Shown: one piece after another, positions 19,301 through 22,300 of the stretch
Numbering within the stretch: position 1 is the first letter of the stretch
Layout of the letters: each line of letters opens with the position of its first letter
From: Escherichia coli
GTDB lineage: Bacteria; Pseudomonadota; Gammaproteobacteria; Enterobacterales; Enterobacteriaceae
NCBI RefSeq assembly: GCF_030013205.1
Contig: NZ_CP122648.1
Length of the DNA: 64,000 bases
Strand: one strand, 5' to 3'
Position numbers: made by a program

Positions 19301-22300
19301 CTAATTATTTAAAATTAAAGCCATCCGGATGGTTTTCCAGGCTGCCGGTCAACGCCGCGAACAGCACCGTTTTACCATCAATCGAAAGCGCATCGTTCAC
19401 ATTCAACCAAGTGAGTTTCTCTTGCGACGTTTTCTCATCAATAGTCGAGAACAGCCCCGTCATCTGATTAGATTTCTCGGACCACATCACAGCGATACGT
19501 TGCGAGCCACAGTCATACGGTTTGCACGCGCTCATCACCTGATACGTCTCATCTCCCAACGTTACGGTTTGTGCGGGAGTATAAGTACCGCCTTTCATCA
19601 CCCATGCAGGTAGCTTATGCCCTTGCACCATCTGATTAAACGCAGCTTTGGTGGTTTCGCCCTTTGCAAGGCTGCTAATGGTTAAATCATCCTGCGCCAT
19701 TGCACTGGTGGCGATGACCAGAGCGGCGACTGTCGTTATTGCCTTAAACATCATTCCTCCCGAGCTTATCCTGCCCATGTTATTAACCTCCTAAAGCCTG
19801 GCGATAACACGATAATTTGCAAATCAGATATTTCCAATATCAGCATTTGTTATCAATTTATTCTGCGCTAAGGCAACTGCCTGATAAGGTGTTAGAGTTA
19901 TAAAACCCTTCGCATAAAGGAGTTGTACACCGTGCCTGGTTTGAAGATTACGCTTTTACAGCAACCACTGGTGTGGATGGATGGTCCTGCCAACCTGCGT
20001 CATTTTGATCGTCAACTGGAAGGTATTACCGGGCGCGATGTGATCGTTCTACCGGAGATGTTTACCAGCGGCTTTGCCATGGAAGCGGCAGCTTCGTCGC
20101 TAGCACAAGATGACGTAGTGAGCTGGATGACAGCCAAAGCGCAGCAGTGCAATGCGCTGATTGCAGGCAGTGTTGCATTACAAACGGAGTCTGGTTCGGT
20201 TAACCGCTTTTTGCTGGTTGAGCCGGGCGGCACGGTACATTTTTATGATAAGCGTCATCTGTTCCGCATGGCAGATGAGCATCTACATTATAAAGCGGGC
20301 AATGCGCGAGTGATTGTGGAATGGCGCGGCTGGCGTATTTTGCCGCTGGTGTGCTACGACTTACGTTTTCCTGTGTGGTCGCGCAATCTCAACGATTATG
20401 ACCTCGCCCTGTACGTCGCCAACTGGCCTGCTCCGCGCTCTCTGCACTGGCAGGCATTGCTGACGGCCCGCGCGATTGAGAATCAGGCGTATGTAGCGGG
20501 ATGCAATCGCGTCGGCAGCGATGGCAACGGCTGCCATTATCGCGGTGACAGCCGGGTGATTAATCCACAAGGCGAGATTATCGCTACTGCCGACGCGCAT
20601 CAGGCAACACGCATTGATGCGGAGCTGTCGATGATGGCATTGCGGGAATATAGAGAAAAGTTTCCGGCATGGCGGGATGCGGATGAGTTTAGGTTGTGGT
20701 GAGTGGGTGTTGTGTTTAGGGCCGGGGAGAGTCAGGGTAAGACTACGAAAGCCCGCTCCCTGCAAGGACTGACGCCAGGTAGTTTCTGTCCATGGCTGCT
20801 TTTCGCATCTTACGTCTTAACCCTGCCTTGAATACATTATCATTCGTTAAAATATTAATAGCGATGTGCCGTATCCCTGAAAATAATTCTGCTGCATTTC
20901 CTCTTCTTATTTTTCAGTCGTCTTTATTCATTACCACGTCCAGACGCCAGTGCAGCTTATTCTCCACGTGCCAGTGGTTTCGGATTGCTGTGGCGAACTT
21001 CTCTGCGGTTAAATCAGCAGAACTGATATAATATCTGACCGTCATTTCTGGCTCTTTCTTTTGTTCTGCTATTATTGACCGAAAGGAGACTGCCACACAT
21101 AATTTCTTCAGTCCTTTCCATTCAAACGTGAAATCAATAAGTTCATCAGGGACATCGCAAACAATATGAAGACGGATTTCTTCTCTGCCGTGACTCTTTT
21201 CACTAATGGCGTAACTGTCATGCTCTGGATTATTTAATTCTTTCAGTGGAAATTTTTCCTCAAAGGCTTTATTAAGCCGCCCCTGATTTCCTTTTACAGC
21301 GAATAAATAATCACCGCCCTGTTTTTGTATCTTCTCTGCAATATCTTTCTGGCAACCCATCGCATCAGTTGTGATGATTTTTCCTTTAATATCCAGCACG
21401 TTAAGAAGTTCAGGGATAGCTGTGATTTCATTGAATTTCTCATCCGTCCTGATCTGTCCGATGACCAGACTGTGCATTGTTGAGAACGCACTAATGACAT
21501 GAATCGCTCCCCTGCGGCGACTCTTGTCATAAGAATGCCGGAGCGTTTTTCCATCAATTGCAATGACGTCTTTATCATCTGAAGAATGGCAGTCACGCAT
21601 CCAGTTAATAAAGCACTCGTGAAATTTTGCAGGACTGATACAGGATACAACTCTGGCAATGGTATCGTGAACAGGAATACCATTTTCAAAATCACCGTAT
21701 TGTTTTAAAAAATCGAGATGTGTTTCCCCAAAATCCTCTATATCTTCCCAACCTTCTGCACCAGAAATAACGGCACAAATAGTCAACAGTAGAATATCCG
21801 ATAATTTATGTTCCACTTTCCAGGCTTGTCTGTAATCGGGAATAATAGAAATATGCTCCATCAATTTTTTAAGTTCCATTTTGTTCTCCTTAATTATGTA
21901 AGGAGTATTTGATCATGTATACGCAATAAAAAACAGCTTCAGGTAATGAGGAATATCTCAATTTTTAAGCATAAAATGCGAATTGTTTAGTACAAAAAAG
22001 CAGCGTTACGTGATCTTTCCCTGCACTTCACCCTAACTTTAATTTAACTTCAAGAAGTATTAAGGCCTCAATAGCGAACTTAATACTTCTTAAAGAATAT
22101 CACTCCTGACCAAAATCTTTCCACACTAATGCATGAGACTTTGATTTATCACCCAAAAATTTACTTACATCTTTCCAAAGTAAAGAATTGCTATCGGTCG
22201 CAGTGACTATTGCCTCTATAAGCCCTGTAGCTACAACTGTGGCCAATTCATCATCAATCGAGACCATACCATCTTCGACATGTTTAAATATTTTTTCTCT

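What the first reader, a model, noticed from the sequence alone, without database searches (positions are those of the whole stretch)
22052..22091. Perfect 13-bp inverted repeat downstream of the Rhs immunity gene
aagaagtattaag and cttaatacttctt are separated by 14 bp, 9 bp past the immunity stop and about 170 bp upstream of the H-repeat transposase start. It could be a terminator-like stem-loop closing the toxin/immunity unit, or a relic of the H-repeat element end.
Basis: seen in the sequence. Interest (0 to 1): 0.25.

Follow-up and report, generated by a model that had tools for sequence, protein, structure and literature searches.

The report
Stem-loop after an Rhs immunity gene
The inverted repeat is real and travels with one particular E. 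coli Rhs toxin/immunity cassette as an ordinary AU-rich RNA hairpin just after the immunity gene; it is not an end of the neighbouring H-repeat insertion sequence and not a textbook terminator.

Summary
The perfect 13-bp inverted repeat (22052-22064 / 22079-22091, 14-nt spacer) is there. It extends to 17 bp (22048-22095) and is the longest perfect hairpin repeat in the window; none of 60 dinucleotide shuffles gave a stem of 13 bp or more.

The window is E. coli. On the minus strand lie an N-terminally truncated rhs, a 125-aa immunity-like gene, the hairpin, and a 1291-bp ISEc1 (H-rpt) copy. Homology breakpoints in more than 5000 genomes put the ISEc1 end at 22023, with its own CAGGG... terminal repeats. 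The hairpin therefore starts 25-29 bp outside the IS. Seven other ISEc1 left-end flanks lack it.

The hairpin follows this immunity gene in 400 of 5426 E. coli genomes and in 22 metagenome contigs. It occurs in three downstream contexts:
- ISEc1 24 bp beyond the stem (allele A, this window)
- ISEc1 about 276 bp beyond it (allele B)
- IS1 abutting the stem base (one genome)

Only two alleles exist. They differ at 8 of 48 positions, yet both fold to about -21 kcal/mol on the sense (minus) strand, with G-U pairs where the plus strand has C-A mismatches.

The stem is AU-rich, the loop is 14 nt and no U-tract follows. My best reading is a 3'-end RNA stem-loop that stabilises the transcript and terminates weakly at most. 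A functionless palindrome is the main rival. Interest is low.

The parts
22048..22095 (-). Stem-loop. The 17-bp stem contains the perfect 13-bp core at 22052-22064 / 22079-22091. The 14-nt loop (22065-22078) can form 2-3 further inner pairs.
   Evidence: On the minus strand all 17 positions pair (one G-U); MFE about -21 to -23 kcal/mol. It is the longest perfect hairpin repeat in the window.
22100..22477 (-). 125-aa immunity-like gene. Its start overlaps the rhs stop (TAATG). Its stop lies 4 nt before the 17-bp stem.
   Evidence: Weak DUF7674 match, below the curated cut-off. Annotated as a hypothetical protein. A 58%-identical homologue follows a 78%-identical toxin domain in a CDI-type context.
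22477..24648 (-). N-terminally truncated rhs gene (RHS repeats, RHS core and a C-terminal toxin tip).
   Evidence: Pfam RHS and RHS_repeat. Annotated as 'RHS repeat-associated core domain-containing protein, missing N-terminus'.
22024..22047 (-). 24-bp spacer between the stem-loop and the ISEc1 end. It is conserved (21/24) in allele B, so it belongs to the cassette's 3' flank and not to the IS.
20733..22023 (-). ISEc1 (H-rpt, ISAs1 family), 1291 bp. Terminal inverted repeats are CAGGGTAAGACTACGAAAGCCCGC (from 20733, plus strand) and CAGGGAAAGATCACGTAACGCTGC (from 22023, minus strand), matching at 17 of 24. No target-site duplication.
   Evidence: Homology breakpoints at query positions 32-34 and 424 across more than 5000 genomes. 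Sequence. The same ...GATCTTTCCCTG end occurs in 7 other copies.
20743..21879 (-). ISAs1-family transposase pseudogene with an internal stop; the open part is 20914-21879 (321 aa).
   Evidence: DDE_Tnp_1_assoc and DDE_Tnp_1; annotated 'internal stop'.

Best explanation
The repeat is the DNA image of an RNA stem-loop at the 3' end of the rhs-tip/immunity transcript (minus strand). It starts 4 nt after the immunity stop codon and belongs to this toxin/immunity cassette, not to the adjacent ISEc1. The inferred mechanism is as follows. Once transcribed, the ~17-bp AU-rich helix (about -21 kcal/mol) forms at the end of the message. There it blocks 3'-to-5' exonucleases and so stabilises the immunity mRNA. 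It may also pause or weakly terminate RNA polymerase, which would limit read-through into whatever lies downstream: an orphan immunity gene in allele B, or ISEc1 here. Shown: the repeat is real and non-random, it lies outside the IS, it is strictly linked to the immunity gene in three downstream contexts, and its pairing is kept better on the sense strand. Inferred: that it is transcribed, and that it stabilises or terminates.
For: Non-random.

Outside the IS.

Linkage: the 56-80-bp segment occurs in 400 of 5426 E. coli genomes, once per genome, always directly after this immunity gene. All 22 metagenome contigs that carry it show the same two alleles.

Three downstream contexts:
- ISEc1 24 bp beyond the stem
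- a 248-bp relic of a second immunity gene, then ISEc1
- IS1 abutting the stem base

Alleles A and B differ at 8 of 48 hairpin positions, whereas the immunity gene is 96.8% identical. The minus-strand MFE is nevertheless unchanged (-21.3 vs -21.2 kcal/mol), and the plus strand is weaker (-17.1 / -16.3). The three internal stem substitutions give G-U or C-G on the minus strand and A-C mismatches on the plus strand.

By analogy, the homologous module in a CDI-type contig has an unrelated GC-rich hairpin followed by AUCUUUU, starting 7 nt after its immunity stop.
Against: - No U-tract follows the stem (UUAAAUUAAAGUU), only 4 of 17 pairs are G-C, and the loop is 14 nt. The consensus terminator scan does not call it.
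- Only two alleles exist, so covariation rests on three substitutions, about p = 0.125 by chance. Templated quasi-palindrome mutation could produce the same pattern without selection.
- More distant immunity homologues (Salmonella, 53% identity) and other rhs immunity genes (yhhH and those in L015 and L008) have no comparable hairpin, so it is not a general requirement of such cassettes.
- In this strain the rhs is truncated and the T6SS cluster is degraded, so current function here is doubtful.
- There are no transcript data.
Confidence: 0.5

Rival explanations
1. A functionless palindrome. An AT-rich intergenic quasi-palindrome made or perfected by template-switch (quasi-palindrome correction) mutation, hitch-hiking with the immunity gene because it lies only 4-8 nt away.
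For: Only two alleles exist and they are clonal in 400 genomes and 22 metagenome contigs. The hairpin sequence diverges faster than the adjacent gene (8 of 48 positions against 3.2%). There is no hairpin after distant homologues or other rhs immunity genes. There is no terminator signature and no Rfam family.
Against: Both diverged alleles keep a stem of 15 bp or more and an identical sense-strand folding energy despite 17% divergence, with a strand-asymmetric (G-U) substitution pattern. No shuffle reaches 13 bp.
Confidence: 0.3
2. A bona fide intrinsic (Rho-independent) terminator that efficiently ends the rhs-immunity operon.
For: It sits 4 nt after the stop codon. The helix is stable at -21 to -23 kcal/mol. 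The homologous module in the CDI-type contig has a canonical-looking hairpin plus U-run at the same place.
Against: The tail UUAAAUUAAAGUU has no U-tract, the stem is AU-rich and the loop is 14 nt. The scan does not call it. By contrast, the three 12-bp perfect hairpins in the window have 3-4-nt loops and lie at gene or tRNA ends.
Confidence: 0.1
3. A DNA-level site: an operator for a dimeric DNA-binding protein, or a recombination or insertion hot spot that marks the cassette boundary.
For: It is a perfect palindrome with a conserved loop core (CTCAATAGCGA is identical in both alleles). Two different IS elements ended up within 0-24 bp of the 17-bp stem: IS1 abutting it in L003 and ISEc1 24 bp away here.
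Against: Allele B breaks DNA symmetry (C-A on the plus strand) while RNA pairing is kept. Seven other ISEc1 insertions show no hairpin near the end. The site is single-copy per genome and no second site exists. AT-rich DNA is a common IS1 target anyway (general knowledge).
Confidence: 0.07
4. A relic or terminal repeat of the H-rpt/ISEc1 element, or of another mobile element (a MITE or an excision footprint).
For: Only its proximity to ISEc1, which ends 24 bp from the 17-bp stem.
Against: The ISEc1 end is at 22023 with CAGGG... termini unrelated to the repeat. Other copies lack the repeat. It is retained with ISEc1 about 276 bp away and with IS1 instead. It has no flanking direct repeats and no other copies in E. 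coli genomes. The only hit among 100,044 species genomes is an unrelated Paenibacillus terminator-like hairpin.
Confidence: 0.03

Closest known systems
Stabilising stem-loops at mRNA 3' ends in enterobacteria (exonuclease barriers, as described for REP hairpins and terminator hairpins; general knowledge)
   Same: A stable hairpin immediately after the last stop codon of an operon, on the sense strand. Its pairing tolerates G-U changes.
   Different: It is single-copy and cassette-specific, not a dispersed REP family. Its stem is AU-rich. No experimental data exist.
Intrinsic (Rho-independent) terminators of E. coli
   Same: The position right after a stop codon and the hairpin's free energy.
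   Different: There is no U-tract, the loop is 14 nt, and the stem is only 24% G-C. A consensus scan does not call it.
Terminal inverted repeats of ISEc1 / H-rpt (ISAs1 family)
   Same: Only that it is an inverted repeat near an ISAs1-family transposase gene.
   Different: The ISEc1 termini are 1291 bp apart at 20733 and 22023 and begin CAGGG. The finding is a 40-48-bp local hairpin lying wholly outside the element.
Rhs / CDI toxin-immunity cassettes with downstream orphan modules (Rhs tips with H-rpt in E. coli; cdiA-CT/cdiI orphans that start at the VENN motif; general knowledge)
   Same: The gene order is rhs tip, overlapping immunity gene, then an orphan immunity relic or IS. The same toxin/immunity module (78% / 58% identity) occurs upstream of a VENN-type orphan in another contig.
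   Different: A hairpin after the immunity gene is not a defining or general feature of these cassettes. It was absent in 5 of 8 distinct immunity-gene 3' flanks examined.

Membership tests
Intrinsic (Rho-independent) terminator | G+C-rich stem with a short (3-8 nt) loop | tested here: not met
   The 17-bp stem has 4 G-C pairs, 1 G-U and 12 A-U, and the loop is 14 nt. The scan did not report it.
Intrinsic (Rho-independent) terminator | U-tract immediately 3' of the stem | tested here: not met
   The minus-strand tail is UUAAAUUAAAGUU (4 U in the first 8, not contiguous). The plus-strand tail is AAUAUCAC.
Intrinsic (Rho-independent) terminator | Located just downstream of the last gene of a transcription unit, on the sense strand | tested here: met
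   The stem starts 4 nt after the immunity stop on the minus strand.
Intrinsic (Rho-independent) terminator | Transcripts actually end there | not testable with these tools
   No transcript data are available. E. coli K-12, for which 3'-end maps are available (general knowledge), lacks this cassette: the genome-contig scan, with one genome per species, found no relative of the immunity protein.
ISEc1 / H-rpt (ISAs1 family) terminal inverted repeat | Lies at the terminus of the element | tested here: not met
   The element spans 20733-22023 (1291 bp) by homology breakpoints in more than 5000 genomes. The repeat starts at 22048/22052.
ISEc1 / H-rpt (ISAs1 family) terminal inverted repeat | Sequence matches the element's terminal repeat and recurs at other copies | tested here: not met
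   The termini are CAGGG(T/A)AAGA.... Seven other left-end flanks are unrelated and have no hairpin at that distance.
REP/BIME or other dispersed extragenic palindromes; MITEs | Many copies per genome (for MITEs, also flanking target duplications) | tested here: not met
   There is one locus per genome; the two 'places' reported are the two strands of the palindrome. No flanking direct repeats.
Curated RNA families (Rfam 15) | Match at or above a family's gathering score | tested here: not met
   Only generic hairpin matches at 12-22 bits, against gathering scores of 40-249.
Rhs toxin/immunity cassette (as the context of the hairpin) | RHS core, then a variable C-terminal tip, then a small overlapping downstream gene | tested here: met
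   Pfam RHS and RHS_repeat. TAATG overlap of the rhs stop and the 125-aa ORF start. Tip and immunity homologues are paired in another contig. Immunity function itself is not tested.

The most novel reading that the evidence does not exclude
The hairpin could be a cassette-boundary element with a DNA-level or regulatory role. It might be a hot spot where IS elements and orphan modules are joined to this toxin/immunity unit. It might instead be the 3' end of a stable 3'UTR-derived small RNA. The conserved loop core and the two independent IS junctions within 0-24 bp of the 17-bp stem are compatible with this but do not demand it.
Probability: 0.05. Interest if true: 0.45.

Novelty: new member of a known kind. 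Interest (0 to 1): 0.12.

Why it matters
It matters little beyond annotation. The work fixes the true left end of this ISEc1 copy at 22023 and shows the hairpin is part of the toxin/immunity cassette's 3' flank. That is useful for delimiting Rhs tip/immunity cassettes and for not mistaking such hairpins for IS ends. If the stem-loop does stabilise the immunity message or limit read-through into downstream orphan genes or the IS transposase, it would be one more example of a common kind of 3' element, not a new mechanism.

Tried and rejected
- **IS-end hypothesis.** I mapped the ISEc1 boundaries by homology breakpoints and compared seven other left-end flanks. Rejected.
- **IS target-site hypothesis.** No hairpin or shared motif lies next to other ISEc1 ends. 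Rejected.
- **Relatives in other species.** The protein-pattern scan of genome contigs found nothing. The hairpin pattern in genome contigs found only an unrelated Paenibacillus hairpin.
- **Protein homologues.** The search gave few. Two gave DNA. L005 (58% identity) has a different GC-rich hairpin. L006 is an indel-ridden assembly of allele-B type, and I did not use it for pair counts.
- **Plasmids and phages.** Only one Salmonella homologue, without a hairpin.
- **Metagenome scan.** A degenerate inner-hairpin pattern, meant to find further alleles for covariation, returned only alleles A and B. No formal covariation test is possible.
- **Rfam.** Nothing at threshold.
- **Literature.** Searches for H-rpt, ISAs1 and Rhs inverted repeats gave nothing relevant in the held library.
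- **A general post-immunity hairpin.** Not found in yhhH, L015, L008 or Salmonella.

Full report
**Observation**

The window reads aagaagtattaag (22052-22064), a 14-nt spacer gcctcaatagcgaa, then cttaatacttctt (22079-22091). The repeat finder extends this to 17-nt arms at 22048-22064 / 22079-22095 with one non-complementary position.

My own scan found it to be the only perfect hairpin repeat of 13 bp or more (loop 3-20 nt) in the 64-kb window. None of 60 dinucleotide-preserving shuffles contained one. As RNA, an 81-nt stretch folds to -22.9 kcal/mol on the minus strand (z = -3.3), where all 17 positions pair with one G-U. On the plus strand it folds to -17.1 kcal/mol.

**Context**

The region is 100% identical to swine E. 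coli chromosomes such as K_EC180. Reading the minus strand, the features are:
- An N-terminally truncated rhs gene (22477-24648; Pfam RHS and RHS_repeat).
- A 125-aa ORF whose ATG overlaps the rhs stop (22100-22477; weak DUF7674 match; annotated hypothetical).
- The hairpin.
- An ISAs1-family transposase pseudogene with an internal stop (20743-21879).
- yafV, on the plus strand.

The adjacent T6SS cluster is degraded: tagH has an internal stop and tssH is truncated.

**Where the H-repeat element ends**

Matches to the transposase region occur in about 5340 of 5426 E. coli genomes, at a median of five places each. In genomes lacking this rhs tip, the match stops at query position 424 of a query starting at 21600, which is window 22023. 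At the other side, matches that leave the yafV flank start at query positions 32-34 of a query starting at 20700, which is about 20733.

That gives a 1291-bp element. From memory this equals the published length of H-rpt/ISEc1. Its termini read CAGGGTAAGACTACG... and CAGGGAAAGATCACG..., matching at 17 of 24. Seven other copies in different loci all end in ...GATCTTTCCCTG, followed by unrelated sequence with no hairpin at a comparable distance.

The finding therefore lies wholly outside the IS, separated from it by 24-28 bp. It has no similarity to the IS termini and is neither an IS feature nor a recurrent IS target. The 'relic of the H-repeat end' reading is rejected.

**What the hairpin is linked to**

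The 56-80-bp segment occurs in 400 of 5426 E. coli genomes, once per genome. The two 'places' reported are the two strands of the palindrome. It always sits directly after this immunity gene. There are two alleles. Allele A is identical to the window in 266 genomes, with 2 near-identical. Allele B is 86% identical and occurs in 132 genomes.

Allele B sits in the RhsE locus (pptA-yddH). There, a 248-bp relic of a second gene lies between the hairpin and ISEc1. That relic is 83% identical to a gene annotated 'CDI system immunity component'. In one genome an IS1 end abuts the base of the stem.

A metagenome scan with a degenerate inner-hairpin pattern returned 22 contigs, all allele A or B with the same flanks. 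The hairpin and the following ~24 bp are thus the 3' flank of this toxin/immunity cassette, and they predate the present ISEc1 junction.

**Strand and structure**

Between alleles A and B the immunity gene is 96.8% identical, but the 48-nt hairpin differs at 8 positions. Both alleles still fold to -21.3 and -21.2 kcal/mol on the minus (sense) strand, against -17.1 and -16.3 on the plus strand.

The three internal stem substitutions behave consistently. Position 22092 changes U-G to C-G, and 22058 changes U-A to U-G. At 22049 the change is also U-A to U-G. All keep pairing on the minus strand and give A-C mismatches on the plus strand. The outermost pair is lost in allele B.

This is what an RNA structure in the sense transcript would show. 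However, it rests on three events, roughly p = 0.125 by chance. Templated quasi-palindrome mutation is a non-selective alternative. No third allele was found, so no proper covariation test is possible.

**Is it a terminator?**

The stem has only 4 G-C pairs of 17, the loop is 14 nt, and the 3' tail is UUAAAUUAAAGUU. The consensus scan did not report it. In contrast, the three 12-bp perfect hairpins in the window have 3-4-nt loops and lie just past gene or tRNA ends. No Rfam family matches.

The same toxin/immunity module (toxin 78%, immunity 58% identity) occurs in a short contig upstream of an orphan that starts at a VENN motif. There the immunity stop is followed after 7 nt by an unrelated hairpin, CCCGGC-CUCU-GCCGGG, plus AUCUUUU, which looks like a canonical terminator.

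A Salmonella homologue (53% identity) and other rhs immunity genes (yhhH, L015, L008) have no significant hairpin in the 80 nt after the stop. A post-immunity hairpin is therefore frequent but not obligatory, and this one is lineage-specific.

**Explanation**

My best reading (about 0.5) is a sense-strand RNA stem-loop at the 3' end of the rhs-tip/immunity message. It would act mainly as a 3'-exonuclease barrier and at most as a weak terminator or pause site, limiting read-through into downstream orphan genes or the IS. The shown and inferred steps are separated above.

The rivals are:
- A functionless quasi-palindrome (about 0.3).
- An efficient intrinsic terminator (about 0.1).
- A DNA-level binding or recombination site (about 0.07).
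- A mobile-element relic (about 0.03).

In this strain the rhs gene is truncated and the T6SS cluster is decayed, so any function is more relevant to genomes with the intact gene.

**Novelty and verdict**

This is an ordinary kind of element, a gene-3' stem-loop, in a specific cassette where it has not been described. I rate it a new member of a known kind and of low interest (0.12). The useful outcomes are the exact ISEc1 boundary and the demonstration that the hairpin belongs to the toxin/immunity cassette.

Noticed in passing
window 20733-22023: This ISEc1 copy has no target-site duplication: the flanks are ...cggggagagt on one side and cacttcaccc... on the other. Its transposase carries an internal stop (the open part is only 20914-21879). 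The same tip/immunity/ISEc1 block occurs at other loci without yafV next to it, so the two flanks have different histories, probably through recombination between IS copies or an adjacent deletion.
   Followed up: partly
L002 3752-4015 (allele B, RhsE locus) compared with window 22020-22035: Allele B carries a 248-bp relic of a second immunity gene (83% identical to an annotated 'CDI system immunity component') between the hairpin and ISEc1. The window's junction (GAAG|TGCAGG|GAAAGATC) looks like a deletion between two GCAGG microhomologies of the allele-B arrangement. However, a 4-bp indel and a different ISEc1 subtype make independent insertion equally possible.
   Followed up: partly
window 24340-38200 (L009 1-13900): The T6SS-1 cluster next to the rhs fragment is decayed. 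tagH has an internal stop, tssH is truncated and joined to a VasL-domain fragment, and the rhs gene lacks its N-terminus. It lies divergent from tssB.
   Followed up: no
L005 1-1139 (Logan SRR26825337 contig): The same toxin/immunity module (toxin 78%, immunity 58% identical) is followed by a GC-rich hairpin plus U-run. Next comes an ORF containing AVENNFLS, the VENN motif that marks CdiA-CT orphan modules. The module therefore appears to be shared between Rhs and CDI systems.
   Followed up: partly
L007 2248-2286 (Paenibacillus sp. HW567): An unrelated genome has the identical 13-mer arms within a longer stem, AAGAAGTATTAAGCGG-ttaaatg-CCGCTTAATACTTCTT, followed by TTTATTAATTT. This is a canonical-looking terminator. 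It is a coincidental match and the only hit among 100,044 species genomes.
   Followed up: yes
L003 3291-6603 (strain cM8a): Two IS1A copies bracket a frameshifted rhs fragment plus this immunity gene next to tRNA-Asp/dnaQ. One IS1 end abuts the base of the hairpin stem exactly.
   Followed up: partly
L012 1600-1650 and about 1850-1930: At another RhsE-locus variant the ISEc1 left end is followed by a second partial copy of the same end (GTGAACTCCTGATGATCTTTCCCTG). A divergent H-rpt-like end (CAGGGAAAGCATCACGTGATGCTGATTTTTTGCACTAAATAATTCGC) lies right after that cassette's immunity gene. These suggest nested or tandem H-rpt remnants.
   Followed up: no
window 13313-13340, 41587-41613, 62688-62715: Three perfect 12-bp hairpins with 3-4-nt loops lie between hicB and yafL, just downstream of tRNA-Asp, and between yaeF and nlpE. 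They are probably ordinary terminators, two of them bidirectional, and they contrast with the AU-rich, large-loop hairpin of the finding.
   Followed up: partly
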